Shown one piece after another: positions 4,925 to 23,218 of a DNA stretch of 32,000 bases. A program made the position numbers and the translations under genes. The stretch is from Mycoplasma mobile 163K (GTDB taxonomy: Bacteria > Bacillota_I > Bacilli_A > Mycoplasmatales > Metamycoplasmataceae). The DNA is taken from contig NC_006908.1 of the NCBI RefSeq assembly GCF_000008365.1, positions 1 to 32,000 of the forward strand. Direction: 5' to 3'. Numbering within the stretch: the stretch's first letter is position 1; every line of letters begins with the position of its first letter. The notes under the pieces are model-generated. The model had not been told where the DNA came from, ran no database searches, and saw only the letters and a list, made by a program, of their open reading frames with translations.

Positions 4925-6607
4925 CTAAAAATTATCAAAAGTTATAGAAATAATTTGCTTTGAATTTAAACCTAAACTAGAAATTCCAAGATTAGCCGCT
5001 TCATTATCAACTAAAATTTTAAAAAATTCTCTATTTCCAGGTTTAGTTTCCATTTCATTATTTGTAAAGAGATTTATAAATAATCCAAGTGTTGCATGTA
5101 CACTACCATTAAAATATCATGTGTATTTTGATTTTTCTCCAGTAGGAAGAAAAGTGTTTTTAAAAGTTGTTATTGCTTTATTTTCACTAATAGTTTTTAC
5201 TCTTATGTAAATTTCATTATTAATAGTTATAACAAGAGCACTTTGTCCTTCATCTAAATAATTTTTAATAAAATTCATTGATTTTTCATCCAAAATAACA
5301 GGACTACTTGCATTGCTAATTATTTTTAAATTGTTAAAAATAATGTCATTAAAACTTTGAAGTTCATCATTCAAATAATCAGTTACATTTTGACCTAAAG
5401 TATCTAAATTAACAAATGAATTTATTTTTTGTCCCAAAACTTGTGCATTCCCATTTCTCAAATATGCATTTCATTCAATAGGTTTTCCTAGTGATAATCT
5501 AGGCGTCATTCGTGTAAAACTTTTTTCACCATCTTTTCTAGCGATATCAGCAAATGTTATTGAAGTAATATTGCTATTAAAAGTAAAACTAAAAGCATTT
5601 TGTGAGACTTGATTAATTTTTCATGTATCTTTATTTATTAATTCACTTGGATGAAAATGTTCATTCAATGGATTTCTAATAGAAGGATCTTTTGAAAAAG
5701 AACCATCTTCATTTTTTACATAACCTCATTGTTTAATTATTTCAGCAAAGATTTCAGGACTACTAAAAGTGTTCTCTATTTCTTTAAAAGATTCTTGAAT
5801 ACTCTTTCCAGGAAGAGATCTATTATGTTGAGAACCATAATAAGAAGTACTTAAAGAATTAGTGTTAAACCTTATACGTCTTCCTATAAAATTATTTGGA
5901 TTCATTTCTTCTTGTTTTTTAATTACTCCGCTTGCAATTGCAGTATCGGTAAAAAATAAGTTTTGAATAAATGTTTTCATACTTTCTTCAGTATCTTCAA
6001 CATTATCAAAAACTAAAACTAAAGCATCACCCTTACCCATCATGATTGATTTATTATTATCTGTTGTTTCCAGAGTTTTAAATCTTGGATTTCCTTCAAC
6101 ATTGATTCTACCTGAGTAAAATTCATTAGTTAAAACAAATTGATCTGAAGATGTTTTAATTTCAAACATTTGATTTAATTTTTCTGTTTTAAATCCTAAA
6201 AGTATCAATTTATCACTTTGGATTTCATTTTTTTCAAAAATTACTTCTAATTTTCCATTTAAATCATCATGAATAAATTCAAAATTATCAAAACTATCTT
6301 TTGTAATATTTTTGTCATTTTCAAAATTAATATTTTTAAAGAAATTATCAATATTAATTTGACTTGGTAAAAGATTGTTAAATTCATTTGTTATGTTATT
6401 TTTTATTAAACTAAAATTATTATTTTTAATAGCTAAATTAACCTCTTCTAGAGTTGAAATAATATTGGGTTTAACAGGATCAACTGGAGGAGTAACAGGA
6501 TCAACCGGTTTAGTTGGATTTGAAATAGAGCAAGAAACAACTGTTATAGGAATTAATCCTATTGTTGCTAATTCTGCTGAGAATAAAAGTTTTTTTCTTA
6601 ATTTCAT
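4925..6607 (-). CDS. Lipoprotein, unknown function (560 aa)
   Basis: Signal peptide plus lipobox (IPITVVSC), followed by a Pro-rich linker PTKPVDPVTPPVDPVKP. Track fragments 5726-6607 and 5117-5461 are in frame. I translated downstream through TGA to the first TAG at 4925-4927. Confidence 0.85.
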
Positions 6608-6748: not shown

Positions 6749-7897
6749 ATGCTTGAAAATAATGGTTGGAATGCAAATACAACAAAAATCTCAACAAGAA
6801 AAGTCACTGTTATGGCTTTACTTTGTGCTATTTTATTTGCCACCAAATTAGCTTTTGGTTTTGTTCCTGGAATTGAATTTGTAACATCTTTATTTCTTAT
6901 TTATGCAATTTTTATGCCTTATAAAGAATCTTTAATAATTGTTTTTATTTTCAATATTCTTGTTGTGATATTTTATGGTTTTGGAGCATGATGATTAATG
7001 TATTGGCCAATTTTTATAACAAATGTAACTATTGGAAGAGTTTTCAAAAAATGGTTTAAAAACAAGTATGTTTTAGCTTCATTTGCTTTTTTACAAGGAT
7101 TTAGTTTGATTTTTTGATTTTATTTAAGTGATTTAATCTGATTTGGCCAAGCTTTTGCATTTTCAAATATCATAAGTGCATTCCCAATTAATTTAATTGA
7201 AGGTTTTTCTAATTTTTTATTTTGTATTGTAGTAGCTCCTAATTTAGTTAAAATTCTAAATAAAAATTTACCTAATTTGTGAGGCGAAAAATTTACTTTT
7301 ACATTTAAAGAAATTAAATTCAAAAAAATAAATTTTTTTTCAAGTATTTTTTTATCATTTATTTCTATTTTTGCTCTAACAATTACTTTTGCTTACAACT
7401 CAACTTTTTTAAATCTTGCACAAATTGTTAGAATAAATACAATAAGACCAAATCCAAATCCAAATCCTAATGAAATTTTTAATTTTGATTTGAATAATTT
7501 ACCTATTGAAAATGGATTATTGACAGTGGAAGCTATTTGATTTTTGCAATCTAAAATGGAATTAACTGATACGGCAACTGTAATTATAATAAATAATACA
7601 GCATATGTAAATATCAACAAAAACTCGGTAAAGCATAATAATTTTGCAGTCAATTATTTAAAGTCAGAAGAAAATAATTGATATTTAACAGGTAGAGATT
7701 TTCCTCTTTTAGGTCTTTTTGTTGAAAAATTTTTTAAAGATGATGTTGAAGTTTTTTCTCCAAAAATCCCGGCTTTATATTTTGTTGTAAACAACTCAAC
7801 AAAAAATATTTTCTCAAGTGTTGGAATAAGTTCTTTAAGTACAAATAATCCTAAATTAATTTTTACTTTTACTTTTGATAATGGCTTTTCTCAATAA
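6749..7897 (+). CDS. Membrane protein: ECF-transporter S-component-like N-terminal domain fused to an extracytoplasmic C-terminal domain of about 190 aa (382 aa)
   Basis: I translated the whole frame by hand and found it open with 7 TGA codons, ending at TAA 7895-7897. N-terminus TRKVTVMALLCAILFATKLAF plus about 5-6 hydrophobic helices resembles ECF S components. It is followed by an NPNPNPN linker and a soluble-looking domain. Confidence 0.7.
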
Positions 7898-7958: not shown

Positions 7959-9176
7959 ATGAAAAAATTAACAAAGATTATTTTAGCAAGTACAGGTGCA
8001 ATAACGGCACTTGGAACTTTAATTGGATTTTCAACTTCTTTTAATTCAATTAATGTAGTATCTATTGGGGGTTCAGCATCTGTTTTACCTTTGGTAACAG
8101 AATTAAGCAATATTTTTACTAAAGCAGATATTGTGACTCAAAGTGGTGGTTCAGGAGCCGGAATTAGGGCAGCAATTGATGGTTCAAGAAATATTGGGAT
8201 GGCTTCAAGAACACCAGGTGTTAGTTTAAATGATGAAGATTTAAGCCGTAGAATTGCTAATATTGATCTTCAATTAGCAAATTCTTCTCTTTCTTTAGAA
8301 GAAAGAAACTCTTTAGATAGACAAAAAATTTCTATAACTAGAGATGCAGCTGCTTGAAGAGAGAAAAATATTAAAACAGTTACTATTGCTTGAGATGGAA
8401 TTGCAATTTTATATCGCCCAGCTAATATGGGTTCCAAAGAAGAATTAGTTTTAACGGCTGAAAATGTAGCAAAAATTTTTGCTGCTTTTTCTGGAGTGAT
8501 TCCTTTAAAACTTTCAGATTTAGATGGTTTGAGTGATAATAATTTAATTATTCCTTATCCAAGAGCTGGAGGAGCAAATGTTTCAGGAACAGCAGAAGCT
8601 TTTGAAAGATCTTCAAACAGGAATTGAGAAGATACAAATTTTTTTAAATCATTAGGAAAAACTGATCAAAATTTGATTAAAAACGCTTTAGAAACAGGTG
8701 CATATGTCGGAAATAATGTAAGGCAAACAGCTGAGGCGAACTCACAAGCATGATCAATTGCAAGAAATGGAAAAATTGGTTCTATGATTTATTTATCAGC
8801 AGGTTTTGTTAATAATAATATAGAAGAAATTGAAAAAGCAGGTTTTAAAGTAGCTTCTTATGATCCCGGTGTACTCCCAACTGCAGAAACAGTTTCAAAA
8901 ACTTATGGCTGATTCAGGCCTTTTAATTTGATGCTACCTATTGGCTCTTCAATTCCACAATTAGATTTTATTAGCTGAATTTTAGATTTAAATAATACCC
9001 CTGGAGTAAATGACACTCCTCAAGAAAAAATAATTAAAGAACAAGGTTTTATCATTTTGTCTAGAAGCCAAATTCTTTCAATGTCACAAGGAATAGATGA
9101 ACAAGAAAGAATTAATCAATTTTGAAAAGCAAGCGATGCAATTTTACAAAGGAGTGGAGCTAATCCAGAAGCTTAA
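7959..9176 (+). CDS. pstS: Phosphate ABC transporter substrate-binding protein PstS (405 aa)
   Basis: GGSASVLPLV...QSGGSGAGI...ASR motifs. Track fragments 7959 and 8427 are in the same frame. TAA at 9174-9176. The N-terminal hydrophobic anchor has no lipobox Cys. Confidence 0.88.
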
Positions 9177-9181
9177 AGATA

Positions 9182-11209
9182 ATGAGTTTATTCAAAAATA
9201 ATCGTTCAAAAGAAATAAAAATAAAAAGCAAAAAATCTCAGGATTTTAATATTAAAACTTTATCTTTAGTTGTTTCTGCTTTTGTAGGTATTTTATTTAT
9301 AGCCTTAGTTATTTATATTTTATCTTTTGCTATTATTGGTTTTACTAATTTTGGAATTCAAAATATTTTATTTACTTTTGATTTTAATCCTTCTTTAGGA
9401 CAATATTCATTTTGGCTTCCTTTTTTTACTACAATCATTACTTCGGTAATTGCTTTGCTTGTAGCTGTGCCTTTAGGGATTAAAGTAGCAGTTTTTACGA
9501 AATTTAGAATTAGAAGTCCAAAAATAAGAAAATATGTCTTGATTATTTTTCAAATTTTAGCAGGAATTCCTTCAGTAATTTTTGGGCTTTTTGCTTCACA
9601 ATCTCTAGGGATTTTATTTCAAGGTGCTTTTGGAATTCAACCTAATAGTATTTTTAATGGCTCTATTATGCTCTCTTTTATGGTAATTCCAACAATTGTT
9701 GCATTGACTTTAGGTTCATTAAATTCATTAGATCCAAATTTAATTTCCAATCCTTTAGCTTTAGGAAATTCAAAAACTAGAGCAATTTACAAAATTGCAA
9801 AAAAAGCAGCAAGGCAAGGAATTGTTGTAGCAGTAATTATTGCTCTAGCTAGAGCAATTGGAGAATCGATGGCAATCTCAATGATTTTGCAATCATCCCC
9901 ATCTAATTCACTTTTTTCAAATGGACTTTTTGGTGTTCTAGATTCAGGAAGTCAAACAATCGGTGCTTATATTTCAGTTTCAATGTTTGCAGATGGTGAT
10001 CCAGAAAGAATAAGGCCTTTGCTTTATGCTTTTGGATTAATGATGTTATTTTTTTCGATGATTTTGAATTTAATGATTCTTGCTTTTACAAAGAGAAAAA
10101 AACAACAAAATTCAAAAAAATATTTTAAATTTGAAAAAAATATTAGTGACTTTGTTCTCTTTATTCCGACACAATTAAAAATTTTATTTGAGAGAATACT
10201 TTTTCCTTCTAAATATGTGATAAATTCAATAACTACTGAGAATATTTCAAATTATATTAATGATCGAAATTTTAACTATAAGTTTAAAGATGTTTATCAT
10301 TTTTACAAACTTTTTTGGGAAATAGTTTCAACTCTAATTTGTGCAGCTTTTATACTTTGAATTGTTGGAGATGTTTTAATCAAAGGACTTGCTTTTTCTG
10401 TAAGCAATTCTCAAAATGCCCTTTCTTTATTTACATATGGCAAAAATACTATTTTCCAATCTTTTTTAAATACTTTATTAGTTATTATTACTTGTTTAGT
10501 TATTGCCTTTCCAATTGCTTTATTAATTGCCATTTATATAAACGAATACGCAAATGAAGGTTTTGTAAAAAAGACAATTCTTTTCTTTTTAGATTCTTTA
10601 GGTGCAACACCTTCGATTTTGTTTGGACTCTTTGGACTTTTATTTTTTATTCAAACAGTGGGAATAACTTCTTCAGGAACAGCAGGCAATAGTTTAATTG
10701 CAGGAGCATTTACTTTAATGATTGTTATTATTCCATCTTTTACAAGACAATTAGAACAAGCTTTAAAAAATGTTCCTCTTGAAATAAGATTAAATTCTTT
10801 TGCATTAGGAAATACTAAATGAGAAACAATTAGAAAATTAGTTTTACCAATTGCTTTTGTAGCAATAATTACAGCCATTATTTCTTCCATTGGAAGAATT
10901 CTATCAGAAACAGCCCCTTTATATTTAACAGCCGGGCTTTCAAGCTCTATATCAACTACTTTAGATCGTCCTGGAACAACTTTAACAACCCATATTTATG
11001 CTCAACTATTTTCAGCCTCACCAAATGCTGTTGGAATTCAATTCCAAGCAGCAATGATCACAATGATTTTAGTTACTTTTTTAGTATGATTAGGTTATAT
11101 TATTATTCCAAACCGAATTACTATTCAGAATTGAATTAGTACTAAATTTAAAAACATTAGAAGTTTTGTTAGAAAAAATAAATTAAAACAGGAGGGGTAT
11201 AATGTTTAA
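9182..11209 (+). CDS. pstCA: Fused phosphate ABC permease PstC-PstA (675 aa)
   Basis: Fragments 9182-10360 and 10619-10822 are in one frame, and I translated the gap as open. Each half carries a permease EAA-like loop (ALARAIGESMA in the first half, SETAPLYLTAG region in the second). Confidence 0.88.
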
Positions 11210-12047
11210 GTTTTTTAAAAATAAACAAGATAATAAAAAAATTGAAAGAAAAATTGAATTTAAGGAAAAATTAAATTCACTAGAAGAAAATGTTGTTTTT
11301 AAAATTGAAAATTTATCTCTTTGATATAAAAAAGGTGAAAAACAAGCTTTAAAAAATGTTAGTGCAAACATTGCAAAAAATCATGTGACAGCTTTGATTG
11401 GACCTTCTGGATGTGGAAAAAGTACTTTTTTAAGAGAATTAAATCGAATGAATGACACGATTGAAGGTGTTTTAACAGATGGAAATATTTTCTTTGAAGG
11501 TAAAAACATTAAATCAAAAAAACTACCTGTTACTTTTTTAAGGACAAGAGTAGGAATGGTTTTTCAAAAACCTACACCATTTCCTATTTCTATTTATGAT
11601 AATATTGCTTATGGCCCAAGATCTAATGGAATTCACAATAAAAAAGTTTTAGACAAAATTGTTGAAAATGCATTAAAATCAGCAGCTTTATGAGAAGAAG
11701 TAAAAAATAATTTAAAGGATTTAGGAACTTCTTTAAGTGGTGGACAACAGCAAAGATTATGTATTGCTAGAGCAATTGCAATAGAGCCCCATGTTTTATT
11801 AATGGATGAACCCACTTCTGCACTCGATCCAATTGCAACAGCTAAAGTTGAAGAATTAATTTTGAAACTTAAAGATAGATATTCTATTGTTATTGTTACC
11901 CACTCAATGTCCCAAGCTCAAAGAATTAGTGATGATACGTTGTTTTTTTATGCTGGGGAAATTGTTGAAGCAAATAAAACCAAAGAGATCTTTTTAAGAC
12001 CTCAATTAAAAAGAACAAGAGATTATATTAATGGAAGGATAGGATAA
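11202..12047 (+). CDS. pstB: Phosphate ABC transporter ATP-binding protein PstB (281 aa)
   Basis: ATG at 11202 overlaps the pstCA end by 8 nt. Walker [10 protein letters not shown], signature LSGGQQQRL, Walker [12 protein letters not shown]. Three fragments in one frame are joined by TGA. Confidence 0.95.
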
Positions 12048-12048
12048 A

Positions 12049-12744
12049 ATGCCAATAAATTATAATATTTTATTAGAATCAGAAAAAGAGTTAAAACGTT
12101 TAAAAATTGAATATTTTGAGTATGTAAAATATATACACACAAAAATGTGAAAAGAAATTTTTGAAAAAGAAGCAAAAAAAGAAGAAATTATTTCAATCGA
12201 ATATAATGATGTCATTTTAAGAAGGTTGGATCAAGCAGCTGAATTAAATTCAAATCTAATTGATGAGTGTGTTTGAACAATTTCAAAAGATAGTCCAAGA
12301 GCAAATCACTTACGTTTTATTATTTCAATTATTCAAAGTGCTAAAGATTTAGAAAGAGCTTCCGCTTATGCTTTTATTATTTCTAAAACAATTACAAGGA
12401 GAAAAATTTTAATTAAAAATCTATCCCTTCTAAAACCTATAGTTTTTAAATATCTTGAGATTTTTGATTTATTTATTAATTTATATAAAACATCAAGCAT
12501 TTCTAAATTGGAAAAAGTAGATGAAATTATAAGCGATTTTAAAGAAGCGGAACACAAATTTTCTAAAAATCTTTGAAAGAAGTTTGAAAATGAATCTTCT
12601 GAATCAGAAGTTGAGTATTTTCCAATTTCTTTAGTATTGAAATCAATTGAATCAACAGTCGAAAGAATAAAAGGTGTTTTTGGATCAGAAAAATTTGTTA
12701 ATACAAAAACAGCTCTTATTGATTTAAGCGAAGATCTTAAATAA
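12049..12744 (+). CDS. phoU: PhoU-family phosphate transport regulator (231 aa)
   Basis: Starts 1 nt after the pstB stop. Helical protein in the canonical pst-operon position. The frame is open with TGA=Trp as far as TAA 12742-12744. The track shows only an antisense artefact here. Confidence 0.75.
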
Positions 12745-12767
12745 AAAACCACATGTAGTGGTTTTTT
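12743..12767. terminator. Bidirectional terminator hairpin
   Basis: aaaaaaccac-atgta-gtggtttttt, located between convergent stop codons. Confidence 0.75.
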
Positions 12768-13473
12768 AATTTCCTTTTATTCTAAAAACATAAAAGTTTT
12801 TATTTGTATTTAAACTTTGGTTATCTTTTAAAATATCAGTTTTTTTACCTAGTAATAATGGTGAAAAAATAAGCATATTGTCTTTTTTTAGTACATTTTG
12901 ATAAGAACTTTGCAAATAAAAATTATCAATTTTTAAAACATATTCTATATCAATTAAAGTATTTTCATTTTCATTTAAAAACTTTAAATTAAATGAGCTT
13001 TTAATTAGATCATTATTTTTATCTAGAAAATATATTTTTTCATTATTTATCAATTCAAAAGAAACATCAATAGACCAAAATACTCTTTGTTGAGTTTTAT
13101 ATTTTAGTTCAATTATAAGATCATTTTTATTTAAGTAAAAATTTAATTCTAAGTTTAAAAAATTTTTTATTTTGTCCAAATTTTTTACAATAACCATTTT
13201 TAAAAATTTATTTTTTTTATAAATTAAAGAAGCTTTTTCAAAAATGTTTCACTCTGAATTTATTTCAATTAAATCTAATAATTCTAAATTTTTTTCATAC
13301 AAAATTTCTTTAATTAGTGATTTTTGAACACCAAAAAAATTTACTTTATTAAATAACAATGTATTTTTAAAGTAAATTTTTTCTAATATATTATTTTGAT
13401 TTAATTGGACTTGAAAATCTCCTAAATCATATTTCATTAAATTAACCAATTTTCCGTTTGGAGAAAATATCAT
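12766..13473 (-). CDS. Hypothetical protein, last gene of the sugar ABC operon (235 aa; alternative ATG at 13437 gives 223 aa)
   Basis: Fragments 12766-13197 and 13249-13473 are in frame and joined by one TGA. I translated the gap as open. No motif recognised. Confidence 0.6.
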
Positions 13474-14749
13474 AAGTTACAGCAGCAGCTAAAACAATAC
13501 CTGTAATAATATTAATAAATGCAGCTTCAACTTGATTTACAACTAAACCAAGATTAATTGTAGCGATTATTAATGCCCCCATAATGGATCCAATAACTGT
13601 TCCAATTCCCCCAGCAACACTAGCTCCACCAATGAATATTGAAGAAATTACATTTAGTTCAAATCCTGCAGTTCCATTTGGTTGAGCTGCTTGAAAATTA
13701 CCTGCAAAAATAATACCAGCAAAAGAAGTTATAATTCCCATGATCACAAAAATAGCAAATGTTGTAAATTTAGCATTAATACCACTTAATTCAGCAGCTT
13801 TTCTATTCCCACCAATAGCATAAATAGATCTACCAAATTTTGTATATTTAGTTAAAATTACAAACAAAATAATTAAAATTAAAATATAAAGCATAAATAA
13901 TTGTAATCCAATTCTTGACATTGCTGTTAAAATAGCCAGAACAAAGAATAAACCAATAACAAATAATTGTTTAATCAAAAATACAAAAAGATTTTCAACT
14001 TCTAAATTATATTTTTTTGCTTTAAATCTTCTTTGAAATGAATAAGCTACTAGTAAAGATCCGATTACTAATAAAATTAAAAATGAAATAATTCAAAAAG
14101 GATTTTGAGTAGTTCCTAAATTAAAATCAGGAAAAGGAGCTTGAGAAAATTGTACAAAGCTTGTATCAAAATCGACAATTAAAGGTTGACCATTTGTTAA
14201 AACTAATTCAAGACCTTGAAAAATTAGCATCCCCCCCAGAGTAATAATGAATGCTGGAATTCTATAGTATCCAATCATAACACCTTGGATAATACCAACC
14301 CCTGCTCCTAATAACAAAGTAAGAATAATTGTTAGAAATATGTTTCCGCCAGTTACATTATTAAAAAGTGTTAAAGCAATTGCACTAGAAAATCCTAAAA
14401 GCCTCCCAACACTTAAATCTATATTTCCACTTACAATAACTAGCAACATTGGTAAACCAATTATAAAAATATACGAATTATTTCTTAATAAATTAACAAA
14501 CTGATTCGGACTAAAAAAAGTCAAGCCATTTCCTATTGAAACTGTCGAAAATACTAAGACCATCAGCCCTAATATATAAAACATTGAATACTTGTTAAAA
14601 TGTTTTAATCCTATTTTTAAATATTTGTTAATAAAAATAAAAAAGGATATTTTCAAAATATGGTTTTTTATTTTTTTAATGTTGTTTGTAAAAATATTTA
14701 GAGAATCAGAAATATTTTGTTTAAATTTATTAAACATATTTTGTTTCAT
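13442..14749 (-). CDS. Sugar ABC transporter permease (CUT2/RbsC-XylH-like, 435 aa)
   Basis: Fragments 13442-13978 and 14093-14764 are in frame, and I translated the gap as open. About 10 hydrophobic helices and a GNRKAAELSGINA loop typical of RbsC-family permeases. The first ATG is at 14749; the track start at 14764 is a TTG. Confidence 0.82.
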
Positions 14750-16295
14750 TTTTTTCCTTTCCAATTCCTAATTGAATTATTTTTTCCTGAGTTGCATCAG
14801 AAGTTTTTATTTGACCTTTAATTTTTCCTTGGGACATAACATAAATTCTATCTGTTGTTCCAAGTAATTCTTCAATTTCTGAAGAAATAATAACGATTGC
14901 TTTCCCTTGTAAGGCAAATTCTTGAAGTAGAGAATAAATTTCAAATTTAGACCCAACATCAATTCCTTTTGTAGGTTCATCAATAATTAATATTTCAAAT
15001 TTTGTTGTTATAGCTTTAGCGATAACAACTTTTTGCTGATTTCCACCACTTAGTGTTTCAACTTTGTAATCAATATTTGGAACTTTGATTTTAATTTCCT
15101 TTTTTAATTCATTACTATTTTTAATTTCTTTATTTAAATTTAAAAATCCAAATTTTGAATTTAAATTCATGGCAGCTAAATTGATATTAAAATTGATATC
15201 AAAAATTTGAATTAATCCAGTACCTTTTCTATCTTCGGTTGCATACATTAATTTATTTGTAATTGCTTTTTTAGGGGAGTTTATATTCATTTTTTTTCCA
15301 TTAATAAAAATTTCTCCCGAAAGTACTTTTCCATATTGTTTTCCAAAAATACTTAAAGCTAATTCACTTCTTCCAGATCCTACAAGACCACTAATTCCAA
15401 TTATTTCACCTTTTTTAACATTAAAACTAGCATCTTGTACAACATTATACCCATCTAATTTAGGGTGTTCAACAGTAAAGTTTTTTACTTCTAAAGCAAT
15501 TTCTCCAATTTTCCTTTGAAGATTTTTCTCTGGAAATTTGGAAGATAATTGTCTTCCAACAATATCTTTAATTAATTGATCTTCAGAAATTTTAGTAGTT
15601 TCTTTGTTATATTGGGAAATAAATTTTCCATCTCTTATTACAATAATTTCATCTGCAACATATTCTACTTCATTTAATTTATGACTTACAAAAACGCTTG
15701 TAATACCACTTTTTTCTTTTAAATTCTTCATAATATTCAGAAGTTCAAAACTATCTTTATCATTTAAAGAAGAAGTAGGTTCATCTAAAATTAAAAGCTT
15801 TACCTCTTTACTTAAAGCTTTTGCAATTTCTACTAATTGTTGTTGAGCAACTGATAGATTAATCGCAAGAGTTCTAGGATCTATCTTAGGTAAGCCAACC
15901 TTTTCTAAAAGTTTTTTTGCTTCCACAATCATTTGATTTTGGTTTAAAATCCCAAATTTAGTTTTAAAATTTCCAATGAAAATGTTTTCATAAACTGGTA
16001 AATATGGAGAAATAGAAAGTTCTTGATGGATTATTGCAATTCCATCAGAAATTGAATCATTAATACTTTTGTAATGTTTTTCTTTACCTTCGTAAATAAT
16101 TCTGCCTTCTATTTTGTTAAAGGGAATAACACCAGAAATAACTTTTAACAAAGTTGATTTACCAGCCCCATTTTCGCCTACAATACTAGTAATTTTAGCT
16201 TTTTTCAAGTTAAAACTAACATCATTTAAAGCAATTACACCAGGATATTTTTTAGTCACATTTTCAAATTGAAAAATGTAATCATTTTTATTCAT
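14730..16295 (-). CDS. Sugar ABC transporter ATP-binding protein with duplicated NBD (521 aa)
   Basis: Intact ORF. Two Walker A sites (GENGAGKST, GLVGSGRSE), two signature motifs (LSVAQQQ, LSGGNQQK) and two Walker B motifs (LILDEPT, LIIDEPT). Confidence 0.93.
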   Translation of the reverse strand: MNKNDYIFQFENVTKKYPGVIALNDVSFNLKKAKITSIVGENGAGKSTLLKVISGVIPFNKIEGRIIYEGKEKHYKSINDSISDGIAIIHQELSISPYLPVYENIFIGNFKTKFGILNQNQMIVEAKKLLEKVGLPKIDPRTLAINLSVAQQQLVEIAKALSKEVKLLILDEPTSSLNDKDSFELLNIMKNLKEKSGITSVFVSHKLNEVEYVADEIIVIRDGKFISQYNKETTKISEDQLIKDIVGRQLSSKFPEKNLQRKIGEIALEVKNFTVEHPKLDGYNVVQDASFNVKKGEIIGISGLVGSGRSELALSIFGKQYGKVLSGEIFINGKKMNINSPKKAITNKLMYATEDRKGTGLIQIFDINFNINLAAMNLNSKFGFLNLNKEIKNSNELKKEIKIKVPNIDYKVETLSGGNQQKVVIAKAITTKFEILIIDEPTKGIDVGSKFEIYSLLQEFALQGKAIVIISSEIEELLGTTDRIYVMSQGKIKGQIKTSDATQEKIIQLGIGKEKNETKYV

Positions 16296-16317
16296 TTGTT
16301 AATCTCTTTTAAACTTA

Positions 16318-17934
16318 TTAAAATGTGAATAAAGTATTAACATTTGCACTTGTAACAGTAATTGGAGTTAATAAGAAAGTAATGATTTCTTTACCAGAAG
16401 ATGTTTTAAAATTTGTTCTATCAATACTAAATTTAATTAAAGGATTACGAACAGAAACAAATTCTTCTAGAGATTTTAATTGTTCAACAGTTCAAGCATT
16501 AGAAGCTCTAGTAGCAGCATTATTTGTGATTAAGTAATCTAAAATTGTTAAATTAACAGCAGTTAGATCAAAATCTGATTTTAAAACAGTCATGCTCTGA
16601 CCACCCTTATTTTTAATATTAACAACAGAAGTATCAATTGAATCTTGACCTGTTACATAAATTTTGCTTAAATCAAGTCTTGTTGCTCTTAAACCACCAA
16701 TAATTGAAATAGCTAAATTATCATTAGGTGCTAAAATTCCTCTCAAACTATTTCTTTGAGTTTCATTAGCAGCATCAATTCTTGTTTGATAATTGTTTCT
16801 AGCTGTTGTAGCATTTCAACCTGCAGTAGAAACCGAATTAAAATCTTCAGCTCCTAAGTAAGAAAAATTAGTTCCATAAGCTGTTTTGAATGCATCTAAA
16901 ACAGCTTTTGCTCCATTAAAGAATAATTGAGCATTGTTGTCAGCAGGATCTCCTGCAAAAAGCATTGCTGAAATAACCGGTTTATTTTCCATATTATTAA
17001 TAAAAGTAGTCATTTCATTAGTGTTAGCAAAAGGAGTTGTTCTACCAACTAATCCTGAAGCAAGAGCAAGTCCTTGTAAAGTTCCGACTCCAACATTATC
17101 AAAAGTTGTATAAAAATTATAAGAAGATGAATCATTTAAAATTAATCTATCATAAGCAACAACAGGTTTTCCAGCAGTAGCAGCAGATGTTAGAGATGCT
17201 CCAACTCCAGCTGATTCTGAAGCCCCTAAAGCAATACCTTTAACATTATTGTTAGAAATTTGATTTTGTAAAAAAGTATTTTGATTTGGTTGACTAATTG
17301 TATTATTTCCAAAAGTAGTAAAACCTAATTGAGTAGTATTTTGAAGACTAAATTTTAAAGCATCATCTCATCTTTTGTTTGTGTTATCCCCAAAAGCTGT
17401 TGCTATTGCTCCATTTTTAAAATTGGCTACAGGTGCTTTAAAACCAGGAATTTCAACTACAACAATAGATTCATTTCTATTTGATTGACTAACTGTTCCT
17501 TTTGAAAAATAAATAGGAACATTTACAACAGTATTAAATCTTGCATTAATTACAGGTGCTCCCATCCTAATTGAAACATCATTAGGTGTTCCAGGCAAAG
17601 TTGCAAGTATAGTAAAATCAGCAGCAGTAACAGTATTTGAAGCTTTAGTTTTTGATGCATCTAAAACACTAACTAAAGAAGCACGTTGTACATCACTTAA
17701 AGAAGAAACATATGTATTTACATCTGCTACATCTGCAGAAGCTCCATCCATAACACCAAAAATTGATTGCCCAGCCTTGTAAATTACTGTTCCTGTTTTT
17801 GTGGTTACTGCAACTGGTAAAATTTGATTAGCAACAGCTGCTGTATTTGTTCCGCAAGCTACAACTGTAACAATTGGAACTGCTCCCATTGCCACAACAC
17901 CACCAATTAATAAAAGTTTTTTCGATTTTGTCAT
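16318..17934 (-). CDS. Sugar-binding lipoprotein (PBP type 1) with an extra N-terminal domain of about 160 aa (538 aa)
   Basis: Lipobox VTVVAC. Three track fragments are in one frame, and I hand-translated both gaps and the tail to TAA 16318-16320. The KPVVAYDRLI and GQDS motifs are typical of XylF/ChvE/RbsB-like binding proteins. Confidence 0.78.
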
Positions 17935-18297
17935 ATATTTATAATCTCCTTGTTAAAATTAAATTTGTTTTTAGGGACTGATTGCTAGTTTTAAACAAAC
18001 AACTTCAAATCTCCTTAAATGTATTATAAATTAAAAAACTAAAAAAATTTATTTTGAACAATTAAATGTCAAAAAATTTACTATTATGAATAAATTTACC
18101 TTAATTTTTGAAAATTTTGCTTTTTATAAAAAATATTTTAATGAAATTGGAATAATTTTAAATAATTTTTGAAAATTTCAAATTTTTTACTCAAACTCTT
18201 ATAACATTTTATGTTTTAAAAATATTAAAAAAAAGTTACTATTTTTTATAAATTTTTCAAAAAAATAGCAATAATAAAAAGACTAAAAGGAGAAAAG

Positions 18298-20826
18298 ATG
18301 AAATACGATAAAGAGCAGGTTTTGCATTTAAACAAGACAATTGAAGCACATTTTCCACATATTTTTAAAATAAGTGATGATATGCAAATTTCACACCAAG
18401 GAGTATCAAGAATGGTCATGCTTGATCGGTACTCTTTAAAAGATGAATCATTAGCAACATTAGCTGAAGGAGATTTTGTAATTGTAAAAATTAAATATGA
18501 TCCAATGTTTCCTTCTTTAGGACTTGGAACCGTTTTAGGGTTCCAAAACGGAAGTGTAAGAGTGCAAATTCTTCCAGAATATGTACATCAAATCGATCCG
18601 ATTATTTTAGATAAAGAAAAAAAATTAGATGATGTTGTATGAGTACCAAAATCATACATTTCAAAACCTTTAGAAATATATTATGAGCAAATTGCAAAAA
18701 GAGTAGGTTTTGCAATTTCAAAAGATGAATCAAAAAAACACATTGAAGCAATTACTAAGGAATTAGCTGATAAAAATATTATTCCTGCAGGGAGAATTTT
18801 ATATGGAGCGGGTTCAAAAAAAGAAGTAACATTTTTTAACTGTTATGTAATGCCTATGATCCAAGATTCACGTGAAGGTATTTCAAAGCATCGTGGACAA
18901 ATTATGGAAATTATGTCTCGTGGTGGAGGAGTTGGAACAAACGGATCTTCTTTAAGACCCAAGGATGCAATTGCAATTAGTGTTGGTGGAAAAAGTAGTG
19001 GAGCAGTTTCATGATTAAATGATATTTCTCAATTAACTAATTTAGTGCAACAAGGTGGTTCTCGTCGTGGCGCTCAAATGATCATGTTAGGCGTTTGACA
19101 TCCTGATATTGTTGAATTTATAATTTCAAAAATGCAAAAACCTAACATTTTAAAATTCATTAAAGATAAATTTCATCATCCTTTAATAAAAGAAGCTGTA
19201 AATTTTAAATTGAATTTTAGACCTCTATCTCAAGAAAAACAAATGAATATTGACGCTATTCTAGCTCATAAAAATTTAATGCCTCATGGAGTTGTTGTTA
19301 ATGCAGAGAATTTAAAAAAAGCAGGTGGTGAATATGAAATTAATGATCCAGGATTTTTATCAGGTGCAAATATTTCTGTAGCCTTAACTAGCGATTTCAT
19401 GGATGCTGTTAAAAACAATGAAATGTATGAATTAAGATTTCCGGATTTAGAAAAATTTACAAAGGAGCAAAAAGCTTTTTATGATAAAGAATGACATAAC
19501 ATTGGAGATGTAAAAGAATGGGGAAAATTAGGTTATCCTGTTAAAGTTTATTCAACTATTAAAGCTAAAGAATTGTGAGATTTAATTAATTTATGTTCAA
19601 CTTATTCAGCTGAACCAGGGGTATTTTTCATTGATAGAGCAAATGAATTAACAAATGCTCAGTCATATGGACAAAAAGTTGTTTGTACAAATCCTTGTGG
19701 AGAACAACCTCTTGCTCCTTATTCGGTATGTAATTTAGCAGCAATTAATTTAGCAAATTTTGTTGATAAACATACTGGTAAAATCGATTATCCAAAATTA
19801 GAAAACACAGTTAAACTAGGTATAAGATTTCAAGACAATATTATCGATAAAACTTATTATTTTTTAAAAGAAAATAAAGACCAAGCACTTGGAGAAAGAA
19901 GAGTTGGACTTGGAGTTATGGGTCTTCATGACATGTTAATTTGAAGTGGTTTAAAATATGGCTCAAAAGAAGCAAATAAAGTTGTTGATAAAGTATTTGA
20001 AACAATCGCAACAAGTGCATATTTAACTTCAATTGAGTTAGGAAAAGAAAAAGGATCATTTCCATTTTTTACTAGTGTTGAAAGATTTTTACAGAGTGGT
20101 TATGTTAAAAAATTACCTCAAATTGTTATTGATGCCTTTAAAAAAACTAAAGCAATTCGTAATTCACACTTATTAACAATTGCACCAACAGGTTCAACAG
20201 GTACAATGGCAGGTGTTTCGACCGGTCTAGAACCTTATTATGCTTTCAAATATTTCCGTTCAGGTAGATTAGGTAAATTTATTGAAGTTGATCAAGATAT
20301 TGTTGCAGAATGAAAAAAAATTAAGAATTGACCTGCCGATAAAGCTTTACCAGAAATTTTTTCTTCAGCAATGGATTTAAAACCTGAAGAACATGTTAAA
20401 GTTCAAAACTTAATTCAAAGATGAATTGATTCATCTATTTCAAAAACTGTTAATGCTCCAAAAGGATATTCTGTTGAAGATGTTGAAAAAGTATTCATGT
20501 CTTTATATGATGGTGGCTCAAAAGGTGGAACTGTTTATGTAGATGGTTCTAGAGATGCTCAAGTTTTATCTCTTTCAAACGAATTAAATGATTTAAATGA
20601 AGGTGATGATCCAACAAGACCTCTTATTATTGCTGAACATACAAGAAAAGAAATTGAACAACTTGAGAAAAAAGTCTCTTCAGAACCTATTAACAAAGAA
20701 ATTGTTAAAAAATACGGAACTGAAATCGGAAACACTTGCCCAATTTGTAAAAATGGAATAGTTCAAGAAATTGGGGGATGTAATACATGTAGCGTTTGTG
20801 GAACTCAAATGCTTTGTGGTTTGTAA
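18298..20826 (+). CDS. nrdJ: Class II adenosylcobalamin-dependent ribonucleotide reductase (842 aa)
   Basis: TNPCGEQPLAPYSVCNL active-site loop, SRGGGVG and GGSRRGA motifs, and a C-terminal CPIC...CNTCSVC redox/zinc tail. Three fragments in one frame are joined by TGA. SD aaaggag lies upstream of the ATG. Confidence 0.9.
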
Positions 20827-20827
20827 A

Positions 20828-21331
20828 ATGTTGCATATTTATTATGGTTTTGGTAAAGGTAAAACAAGCACTTTAAATGGTTCTGCAATTAGAGCAAAAG
20901 GAGCAGATTTCAAAGTCGTAATTTATCGTTTTTTAAAAGGTGTAAAAACATCAGAAGATGAAGTTCTTGAAAAAGTAGGAATTTTTGTTAAAAAATTACA
21001 TCAGGGAACAAAATTTGTCTTTCAAATGAACGGAGAAGAAAGGCTTAATCTTCAAACTTTTATAAAAAAAGAATTGAAAGAAATTATCAAAATAAAAAAA
21101 GAATTTAATTTTTTTTGTTTTGATGAAATTATTGATTTAGTTGAAGTAAAATTAATCACAGAAGATGAATTGATTTCTTTTTTAGAGCATTTTGAAGAAT
21201 ATGAAGTTTTATTAAGTGGTCATTATGAGCTTAAAAAACTTTTTGAAAAAGCCGATTTAATCACTTTTTATGAAGCTAAAAAACATTATTTTGAAAAAGG
21301 TATTCAAGCAAGAAAAGGTATTGAACTTTAA
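20828..21331 (+). CDS. cobO: ATP:cob(I)alamin adenosyltransferase, CobO/BtuR/CobA type (167 aa)
   Basis: N-terminal P-loop YYGFGKGKTS followed by RAKGADFKVVIYRFLKG, matching the CobA/BtuR pattern. ATG lies 1 nt after the nrdJ stop. The upstream extension in the track (start 20771) overlaps nrdJ and is not credible. Confidence 0.8.
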   Translation: MLHIYYGFGKGKTSTLNGSAIRAKGADFKVVIYRFLKGVKTSEDEVLEKVGIFVKKLHQGTKFVFQMNGEERLNLQTFIKKELKEIIKIKKEFNFFCFDEIIDLVEVKLITEDELISFLEHFEEYEVLLSGHYELKKLFEKADLITFYEAKKHYFEKGIQARKGIEL

Positions 21332-21415: not shown

Positions 21416-21447
21416 AAAAAGCATTTAGCTTATAGCGGATGCTTTTT
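21416..21447. terminator. Bidirectional terminator hairpin
   Basis: aaaaagcat-(14 nt)-atgcttttt, located between convergent genes. Confidence 0.6.
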
Positions 21448-21462
21448 ATTAATCTTTCTAGG

Positions 21463-21813
21463 CTAAAGTATTTTAACTTTAAGCTCTTTTTGAATTGTAG
21501 GAAGTGATTTTATCAAAGCAATATCTTTTTCAACATTTTCAAGTCTATTTTCAATTTTATCTAATCTTGTGTTTATACTTTTAGAAAGATTTTCAATTTT
21601 AGTATCAAAACTTTTAGAAAGATTTTCAATTTTAGTATCAAAACTTTTAGAAAGATTTTCAATTGCATTTAAAATATTTTGATTTGATTTTGTAGCTTCT
21701 TTTTTGATAAAAACTCCTTCAATAATATATTTATAAAAATTACCATCATTAAAAATTTCTTCTAATTTTTGAATTTCTGATTTTCTTATTATTTCTAATA
21801 TTTTCTTTTTCAA
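21463..21813 (-). CDS. Small coiled-coil protein with an internal 11-aa tandem repeat
   Basis: 116-aa intact ORF with a heptad-like C-terminal half (ENLSKSFDTKI x2.6, then LDKIENRLENVEKDIALIK). Confidence 0.7.
   Translation of the reverse strand: MKKKILEIIRKSEIQKLEEIFNDGNFYKYIIEGVFIKKEATKSNQNILNAIENLSKSFDTKIENLSKSFDTKIENLSKSINTRLDKIENRLENVEKDIALIKSLPTIQKELKVKIL
21578..21664. repeat. 33-bp in-frame tandem repeat, 2.6 copies
   Basis: cttttagaaagattttcaattttagtatcaaaa occurs at 21578-21610 and again exactly at 21611-21643. A partial copy runs 21644-21664. Confidence 0.9.
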
Positions 21814-22566: not shown

Positions 22567-23049
22567 ATGAACCCAAAAAACATTAATAATGTTGAATTAA
22601 ACCCAATAAAAACAGTCGGAAGATCAGGGAACGCACTTGCTTTAGTTAATAACACAAAGCAAAATATTAGCTATTGATATTCTGATAATGGCGCTAATAA
22701 ATGGTACTTACACACAATAGGAGCAAATTTATCTACTTGAGATTGGCAATGATCAAACTTTTGAACAGGATATGCACTAGTAATAGAAGTACCACTTAAT
22801 GATAAAGAATCAAAATATATTGTTCCTGCTTTTTCAGAATATAAAAAAGAGGAATTTAAATTAACCGAATTTCCTATGACAGATATTTATACTCAAATCG
22901 CACTTAAAAATAAAGCTCCATTATTCAATAATGGAAAATGAATTTTGGAAAATACTTCCTTATATCCAGGTAAAATTGATAGTTTTGCAACTCATCATAC
23001 AAGATTTGTTTTAGAAAATGATGGATCTTTTTCCTGAGTTAATTTTTAA
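22567..23049 (+). CDS. Trp-rich small protein, paralog 1 (160 aa, 6 UGA + 2 UGG Trp codons)
   Basis: Absent from the track. I translated every codon by hand and found no TAA/TAG before 23047-23049. Strong SD gaggag lies 5 nt before the ATG, and TATAAT is at 22527-22532. A terminator hairpin follows. Confidence 0.8.
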
Positions 23050-23106: not shown

Positions 23107-23218
23107 AATTTTAAATCTTTTAATTAATAAAAAGTTTGTCTTCTAGTTTTATTTTTCTACTTAATTTTACAAATTTTTCCAAAATATTTTATAATTTTAT
23201 TTGAAAGAAGAGGAAAAT

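What the first reader, a model, noticed from the sequence alone, without database searches (positions are those of the whole stretch)
18298..21331. B12-dependent class II ribonucleotide reductase coupled to a corrinoid adenosyltransferase in a minimal genome
nrdJ is followed 1 nt later by a CobO/BtuR-type ATP:cob(I)alamin adenosyltransferase (P-loop GFGKGKTS). The two genes share one terminator (21416-21447) and form a compact module for making coenzyme B12 and using it for dNTP synthesis. To my knowledge, the Mollicutes studied to date generally rely on class Ib NrdEF and cannot make corrinoids. If that holds here, the organism must scavenge cobalamin from its host, and dNTP supply may depend on it. 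I did not see a B12 riboswitch in the 363-bp leader.
Basis: partly seen in the sequence, partly recalled or inferred. Interest (0 to 1): 0.6.

Follow-up and report, generated by a model that had tools for sequence, protein, structure and literature searches.

The report
Mycoplasma vitamin B12 scavenging module
This fish mycoplasma makes its DNA building blocks with a single vitamin-B12-dependent enzyme, and it carries a B12-activating gene next door and a probable B12 importer nearby; this set is old in mycoplasmas and was lost by most of them, and here it probably makes B12 essential.

Summary
Observation confirmed. nrdJ (18298-20826, intact class II RNR) is followed 1 nt later by cobA/btuR (20828-21331) and a terminator. 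The genome is Mycoplasma mobile (777,079 bp, complete). It has no other RNR, no cobamide synthesis, no other B12 enzyme and no deoxynucleoside kinase of the dNK family.

A third part lies 10 kb upstream: a CbrT-type ECF S component fused to a DUF4430-like domain (6749-7897), beside a lipoprotein with the same domain.

The module is not a horizontal oddity. NrdJ matches 57 of 398 Mycoplasmatales genomes, 52 of these have CobA, and NrdJ and CobA trees follow the species tree; a recent transfer from Erysipelotrichales is rejected. In relatives, cobalamin riboswitches head the cbrT/cobA and nrdFIE operons, and one genus has CbrT fused to CobA. M. mobile has no riboswitch.

Class II RNR in M. mobile is already tabulated (PMC4009431), and nrdJ-cbrT-adenosyltransferase clusters are known from Lactobacillus (PMC5997447). 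I found no paper on the order-wide B12 regulon, the fusions or the predicted B12 dependence, which is untested. Scan readers noted the S component on this window and nrdJ/B12 operons in other genomes.

The parts
18298..20826 (+). nrdJ, dimeric-type class II (AdoCbl) ribonucleoside-diphosphate reductase, 842 aa, PRK08115 family. Catalytic C182, N465, C467, E469, C478; C-terminal Cys cluster C814/817/828/831/834/840. The only RNR in the genome.
20828..21331 (+). cobA/btuR-type ATP:corrinoid adenosyltransferase, 167 aa, lacking the N-terminal extension of the Salmonella enzyme. P-loop, F91 and D127/E128 equivalents kept; W93 is F, R161 is H.
21416..21447 (+). Intrinsic terminator-like hairpin after cobA. 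It has an A run before and a U run after, so it is probably shared with the convergent ORF at 21463-21813.
17935..18297 (.). 363-nt AT-rich divergent leader between the sugar ABC operon and nrdJ; Shine-Dalgarno AAGGAG upstream of the start; no cobalamin riboswitch found.
6749..7897 (+). CbrT-type ECF S component (residues about 13-175), an extra TM helix, and a C-terminal DUF4430-like domain (about 250-382): predicted cobalamin importer.
4925..6607 (-). 560-aa lipoprotein divergent from cbrT. It shares the C-terminal DUF4430-like domain and resembles the lipoprotein encoded before cbrT in M. todarodis-group loci: candidate surface cobamide-capture protein (inferred).

Best explanation
A three-step cobamide scavenging module inherited from the Mycoplasmatales ancestor. 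(1) The CbrT-type S component (6749-7897) binds external cobalamin, perhaps helped by its own DUF4430-like domain and by the lipoprotein at 4925-6607, and imports it through the genome's shared EcfA/A'/T module. (2) CobA adenosylates it with ATP. (3) NrdJ uses AdoCbl to reduce NDPs, re-reduced through its Cys tail by thioredoxin. The genome has no other RNR and no dNK, so dATP, dGTP and dCTP most likely come only from NrdJ, and the cell would need a finished cobamide from host or medium. Expression is probably not B12-controlled, as the riboswitch is absent. SHOWN: family membership, active-site residues, gene inventory, co-occurrence, vertical descent, riboswitch and fusion links in relatives. 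INFERRED: transport, enzyme activity, the role of the extra domain, and essentiality (about 0.65 on its own).
For: Sole RNR. No CobS/T/U, EutBC, QueG, BtuC/F, PduO or B12-binding-domain proteins. No dNK by Pfam or by a custom HMM, whose best hit is thymidylate kinase-like, while 168 of 179 family genomes have a hit. EcfA/A'/T, TrxA and TrxB present. The S-component profile has CbrT 6FNP as its only significant PDB match, E 1e-16. In the family, CobA occurs in the 9 NrdJ genomes plus one with a decayed nrdJ, and in none of the other 169; the CbrT-like gene occurs in 7, all NrdJ-positive. In the order, 52 of 57 NrdJ-matching genomes have CobA. A cobalamin riboswitch above the Rfam cut-off heads an operon holding cobA and cbrT in G152; similar elements precede cbrT-containing loci in about 10 genomes and nrdF loci in 8. 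A CbrT::CobA fusion follows nrdJ in G218. Trees agree, and the AU test rejects grouping this NrdJ with Erysipelotrichales rows, p 0.004. GC3 of nrdJ, cobA and cbrT is within the genome range.
Against: No activity or transport data. No flavodoxin or NrdI was found to reduce Co(II) for CobA. CobA scores below the NCBIfam equivalog cut-offs and has W93F and R161H. CbrT was not found in 2 of the 9 NrdJ genomes of the family (83% and 87% complete) nor in G305. Three family genomes show neither NrdF nor dNK nor NrdJ (G109, G145, G174), so either searches miss genes or another deoxynucleoside salvage route exists. CobA persists in 13 genomes without a strong NrdJ match. The DUF4430 link is distant.
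Confidence: 0.85

Rival explanations
1. The module is real but not essential: M. mobile also salvages deoxynucleosides through an unrecognised kinase or a nucleoside phosphotransferase, so B12 is only helpful.
For: Three family genomes lack any detected RNR and dNK. Thymidine kinase is present. Pyrophosphate-dependent nucleoside phosphotransferase activity has been reported in mollicutes (own knowledge, not checked here).
Against: Eight of the 11 family genomes with no dNK hit have an RNR. All three genes are intact in a 777-kb genome, and the order nrdJ-cobA is kept in a relative whose NrdJ is 82% identical.
Confidence: 0.3
2. nrdJ-cobA was acquired horizontally by the M. mobile lineage from another Firmicute.
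For: Rare in the family (9 of 179). The deep NrdJ and RpoB branches do not match fully (11 of 16 strong splits shared).
Against: The family's NrdJ and CobA proteins each form one clade (100), and all Mycoplasmatales NrdJ form one clade (98). Most conflicts involve long-branch rows; patristic rho 0.82. AU p 0.004 against an Erysipelotrichales grouping. TGA=Trp use and GC3 are native. Decayed copies in relatives show loss.
Confidence: 0.04
3. The S component at 6749-7897 carries another vitamin, and B12 enters by another route.
For: It lies 10 kb from nrdJ. Foldseek ranks many S components similarly and did not list CbrT. About 20% identity to the cbrT beside nrdJ in Fundicoccus.
Against: CbrT is the only significant PDB sequence match. 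Orthologues lie next to nrdJ or cobA, downstream of cobalamin riboswitches, or fused to CobA. It is restricted to NrdJ genomes in the family.
Confidence: 0.08
4. CobA has a second, NrdJ-independent role, which explains its survival after nrdJ loss.
For: 13 genomes keep a CobA match without a strong NrdJ match, several apparently intact.
Against: About half of these cobA copies are broken or truncated. Lag after loss would explain the rest, as would a need for AdoCbl as riboswitch ligand. No other B12 enzyme was found in this genome.
Confidence: 0.1

Closest known systems
nrdJ-cbrS-cbrT-pduO cluster of Lactobacillus delbrueckii (ECF-CbrT, PDB 6FNP; PMC5997447)
   Same: The same three functions: ECF CbrT uptake, adenosyltransferase and class II RNR in a B12 auxotroph.
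   Different: Here the adenosyltransferase is CobA/BtuR, not PduO. CbrT is fused to a DUF4430-like domain and lies 10 kb away. The RNR is the dimeric-type PRK08115 family. There is no riboswitch in this genome.
NF005991/PRK08115 and TIGR02504 class II RNR (Thermotoga maritima NrdJ 1XJE is the closest structure)
   Same: Above both cut-offs; all catalytic residues and the C-terminal Cys/zinc-finger tail (PMC9669993) are present.
   Different: Nothing essential. It has an N-terminal region of about 130 residues not covered by the T. maritima match. Class II in M. mobile is already listed in PMC4009431 Table 2.
CobA/BtuR ATP:corrinoid adenosyltransferase (PF02572; Salmonella CobA 1G5R, 4HUT)
   Same: P-loop GxG(K/R)GKT, F91 and D127/E128 equivalents; full-length Pfam match.
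   Different: Lacks about 30 N-terminal residues; W93F and R161H; below the NCBIfam cut-offs; no flavodoxin in the genome.
B12-auxotroph signature in gut bacteria (PMC6593275)
   Same: Loss of all synthesis genes, keeping an adenosyltransferase and a transporter.
   Different: That survey counts Mycoplasma and Ureaplasma only as auxotrophs; the passages read do not describe the mollicute NrdJ/CbrT/riboswitch set.
AdoCbl-II cobalamin riboswitch (RF01689)
   Same: Relatives carry a compact element with the conserved core and covarying helices, upstream of uptake genes and of nrdF-nrdI.
   Different: Most mollicute copies score below the gathering cut-off (5 of 38 genomes above). Absent from M. 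mobile.

Membership tests
Class II RNR (NrdJ) | Score above class II family cut-offs, below class I | tested here: met
   NF005991 1528/854, TIGR02504 557/400; NrdE_NrdA 257/341
Class II RNR (NrdJ) | Thiyl Cys, Asn, Glu and the redox Cys pair | tested here: met
   C182, N465, C467, E469 conserved in 75 of 76 rows and C478 in 76 of 76
Class II RNR (NrdJ) | No R2 subunit or class III partner in the genome | tested here: met
Class II RNR (NrdJ) | AdoCbl-dependent reduction of ribonucleotides | not testable with these tools
   needs an enzyme assay
CobA/BtuR adenosyltransferase | PF02572 above cut-off over the full length | tested here: met
   134.7 vs 25.7 bits, residues 1-166
CobA/BtuR adenosyltransferase | Short P-loop and the aromatic pair (F91/W93) that displaces the lower ligand | tested here: met
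   GFGKGKTS; F91 kept in 24 of 24, W93 is F here; the residue roles are from own knowledge
CobA/BtuR adenosyltransferase | NCBIfam equivalog cut-off (TIGR00708, NF004637) | tested here: not met
   71/168 and 86/185 bits: a divergent, N-terminally short member
CobA/BtuR adenosyltransferase | Adenosylation activity with a physiological reductant | not testable with these tools
   no flavodoxin found
ECF S component CbrT | Six-helix S-component fold | tested here: met
   Model helices H16-173 at pLDDT about 80-94; top Foldseek rows are S components with probability about 1 but E>0.001; Atlas features agree
ECF S component CbrT | Closest characterised S component is CbrT | tested here: met
   6FNP E 1.1e-16, the only significant hit
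ECF S component CbrT | Genomic link to B12 genes or riboswitch | tested here: met
   In orthologues; in this genome only a 10-kb proximity
ECF S component CbrT | Cobalamin binding and ATP-dependent uptake | not testable with these tools
   needs a transport assay
DUF4430 / transcobalamin C-terminal-like domain | Pfam PF14478 above cut-off or a clear fold match | tested here: inconclusive
   No Pfam hit for the window proteins; homologues hit at E 0.008-0.044; the profile retrieves a five-repeat DUF4430 protein at E 3.8e-7 from 1.8 billion; the poor model (pLDDT 54) gives Z 3.4 to 3U7Z and 3.1 to intrinsic factor
Cobalamin riboswitch regulon | Riboswitch upstream of nrdJ or cbrT in this genome | tested here: not met
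   the one weak partial RF01689 hit (E 0.009) is 300 kb away, before unrelated genes

The most novel reading that the evidence does not exclude
Mycoplasmatales ancestrally had a full B12 regulon (CbrT importer with its own DUF4430-like capture domain, CobA, NrdJ, and compact cobalamin riboswitches that switch off class I nrdFIE). M. mobile has reduced it to a constitutive, essential route with no backup, so it is an obligate cobamide auxotroph whose surface proteins may take B12 from host carriers, and whose CobA works without a flavodoxin.
Probability: 0.4. Interest if true: 0.68.

Novelty: new variant of a known kind. Interest (0 to 1): 0.5.

Why it matters
It changes the picture of how near-minimal cells get DNA precursors. 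In this family there are three strategies: class I NrdFIE (45 of 179 genomes), no detected RNR with dNK salvage (most of the rest), and B12-dependent NrdJ (9). M. mobile, a model for gliding and minimal-cell work, sits in the third group without the salvage backup. That predicts a medium requirement that is easy to test. It also suggests that uncultured marine and arthropod mollicutes carrying the module may need cobamides to grow. It gives likely functions to two unassigned genes (6749-7897 and 4925-6607), and points to a CbrT::CobA fusion and a set of sub-threshold riboswitches. The enzymes themselves are ordinary members of known families.

Tried and rejected
Horizontal acquisition: rejected.

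Riboswitch in the nrdJ or cbrT leader: none by Rfam at gathering score or at E<=10, by a custom covariance model, or by nhmmer over the genome. NrdR was not found. The promoter scan was at chance level.

Fold of the C-terminal domain: the model was too poor, and the VIA-align, PDB profile and Atlas searches gave nothing decisive. hhalign to one DUF4430 protein gave probability 25%. Iterating from a single DUF4430 seed did not reach the mollicute domain. My third riboswitch helix was placed in the wrong columns and is not used.

I sent it to no remote tool afterwards and rebuilt the domain alignment without it. An earlier alignment holding part of it had already been accepted.

Sequencing runs: no RNA holder listed.

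Literature: the M. mobile genome paper was not available under the id I tried, so I cannot say whether it discusses nrdJ. Searches for Mollicutes + nrdJ and for Spiroplasma + B12-dependent RNR returned 0 papers; the riboswitch search was uninformative. The library lacks most subscription papers.

Full report
IDENTITY AND OBSERVATION. The window is the first 32 kb of a complete 777,079-bp genome that reads with code 4. 18298-20826 encodes an unbroken 842-aa protein above the cut-offs for the B12-dependent RNR families NF005991 and TIGR02504. Its NF005991 score may be inflated if this protein is in the model's seed. Catalytic C182, N465, C467, E469 and C478 and the C-terminal Cys cluster are conserved across 76 homologues; such tails are zinc fingers in most dimeric class II enzymes (PMC9669993). 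One base after the stop, 20828-21331 encodes a 167-aa PF02572 protein. It matches Salmonella CobA structures and keeps the P-loop, F91 and D127/E128, with W93F and R161H, and lacks the N-terminal extension. A hairpin with a U run follows at 21416-21447.

GENE INVENTORY. NrdJ is the only RNR large subunit. There is no NrdF, NrdD, NrdI or NrdH and no NrdR. CobS, CobT, CobU, EutBC, QueG, BtuC, BtuF, PduO and B12-binding-domain proteins were not found; diol dehydratase and the upstream cob/cbi genes were not searched one by one. So the cell can adenosylate a finished cobamide but not build one, and NrdJ is its only recognised B12 user. Thioredoxins, thioredoxin reductase, thymidine kinase and one EcfA/A'/T module are present. 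No flavodoxin was found, so the reductant for CobA is unexplained. No dNK-family deoxynucleoside kinase was found by Pfam or by an unfiltered HMM built from mollicute dNKs, whose best hit looks like thymidylate kinase; 168 of 179 family genomes have a dNK hit. From this I infer that dATP, dGTP and dCTP depend on NrdJ. Caveat: three family genomes show neither an RNR nor a dNK, so an unseen salvage route or missed genes are possible.

THE THIRD PART. In M. marinum, M. todarodis and related MAGs a membrane protein gene lies beside nrdJ. Its only homologue here is 6749-7897, in the same window. A profile of these proteins has L. delbrueckii CbrT (6FNP) as its only significant PDB match, E 1e-16 (6FNP is ECF-CbrT, PMC5997447). 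The model shows a six-helix S-component fold. After an extra helix comes a soluble domain that is also found at the C-terminus of the divergent lipoprotein 4925-6607 (E 1.5e-7) and nowhere else in the genome. A profile of that domain finds 25 proteins among 1.8 billion, one with five DUF4430 repeats, and some members hit DUF4430 weakly. DUF4430 is the C-terminal domain type of transcobalamins (PMC4350170). Structural support is weak, so I call it DUF4430-like, membership inconclusive.

DISTRIBUTION. In the family (179 genomes) intact NrdJ occurs in 9 genomes of 5 genera. CobA occurs in those 9 and in G070, which has a decayed nrdJ and a class I operon, and in none of the other 169. The CbrT-like gene occurs in 7, all NrdJ-positive; it was not found in two incomplete MAGs or in G070. 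NrdF is above cut-off in 45, and only G064 has both intact classes; 124 genomes gave no RNR match to this query. In an even sample of the order, 57 of 398 match NF005991 (49 above cut-off) across 11 families counting the own, 65 have CobA above cut-off, and 52 of the 57 have both. Kin are not independent, so no statistic is claimed. Direct nrdJ-cobA adjacency recurs in G006, G064, G372, G376, G444 and a close Logan relative, but in most genomes the two are apart. Among 200 sampled Bacilli genomes, 55 carry the same NrdJ family.

ORIGIN. In the NrdJ tree all Mycoplasmatales rows form one clade (SH-aLRT 98) near Erysipelotrichales rows, and the family's proteins form one clade (100) whose well-supported inner order matches RpoB. 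Eleven of 16 strongly supported NrdJ splits recur in RpoB, five of six conflicts involve long-branch NrdJ pairs, and patristic distances correlate at 0.82. CobA recovers the same family clade. Forcing this NrdJ to group with Erysipelotrichales rows is rejected (p-AU 0.004); that group was chosen after I had seen the tree. GC3 and TGA use are native. These are quick single-model trees, so old transfers within the order are not excluded. Vertical inheritance with repeated loss is the best reading, and broken copies in several genomes show loss in progress.

REGULON IN RELATIVES. In G152 an AdoCbl-II riboswitch above the Rfam cut-off heads an operon of a domain protein, two lipoproteins, cobA, cbrT and a second domain protein, just downstream of nrdJ. 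A search of 38 genomes gave hits in 28, above cut-off in 5. The elements share a conserved core, and two helices are supported by compensatory changes. They lie upstream of cbrT-containing loci in about 10 genomes and of nrdF loci in 8, G070 included; several others precede unassigned lipoproteins. By established riboswitch logic this would repress uptake and the class I enzyme when B12 is present (inference). In G218, nrdJ is followed by a 358-aa CbrT::CobA fusion; G249 and G261 have the same spacing. M. mobile has no such element.

WHAT IS KNOWN. PMC4009431 Table 2 lists M. mobile as class II only. The nrdJ-cbrS-cbrT-pduO cluster and CbrT transport are established in L. delbrueckii (PMC5997447). 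Keeping only an adenosyltransferase and a transporter is the common B12-auxotroph pattern (PMC6593275). Mollicute RNR work has centred on class Ie (10.1101/348268). I found no paper on the mollicute CbrT fusions, the riboswitches, the order-wide spread, or B12 dependence of M. mobile, in a library that lacks many papers, including the genome paper.

VERDICT. Real and correctly identified, but a known kind of module and not a rare acquisition. The added value is the importer, the ancestral regulon, the fusions and a testable prediction of obligate cobamide need. New variant of a known kind; interest 0.5.

Noticed in passing
L137:6517-7593 (G218; same spacing in G249, G261): 358-aa fusion of a CbrT-type S component and a CobA adenosyltransferase directly after nrdJ, followed by a small exported protein; uptake and activation may be coupled.
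   Followed up: partly
L227-L256, around position 1500 of each: Compact cobalamin-riboswitch-like elements in many Mycoplasmatales, mostly below the Rfam cut-off, before cbrT/cobA loci, nrdF-nrdI loci and unassigned lipoprotein genes.
   Followed up: partly
L232 and L144:5980-6650 (G070): Genome with a decayed nrdJ and a divergent cobA that keeps a cobalamin riboswitch before nrdF: a module in the course of loss.
   Followed up: partly
G109, G145, G174: Family genomes with no detected RNR and no detected dNK; their dNTP source is unexplained.
   Followed up: no
L095:1349-1413 and L142:5890-5983: A 2dG-I riboswitch upstream of nrdJ in G298 (on the same strand) and a TPP riboswitch before an S component-kinase fusion divergent from nrdJ in G006.
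   Followed up: no
window 24776-27181, 28562-30964, 31005-31886 (-): Two membrane-anchored ORFs of about 800 aa with matching internal ORF patterns, plus partial copies (27222-27647, 31005-31886): looks like a recent tandem duplication.
   Followed up: no
window 22567-23049 and 23201-23707 (+): Two paralogous Trp-rich proteins of about 160 aa in tandem, function not examined.
   Followed up: no
window 21463-21813 (-): 116-aa ORF convergent on cobA with an internal direct repeat and a coiled-coil-like tail.
   Followed up: no
window 12766-17934 (-) and 7959-12744 (+): A sugar ABC operon divergent from nrdJ (synteny kept in a close relative) and a pstSCAB-phoU operon lie between cbrT and nrdJ.
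   Followed up: no
L065:1471-2694 (G068): A second CbrT-fusion paralogue with its own riboswitch-like element and lipoproteins in M. todarodis-group G068.
   Followed up: partly
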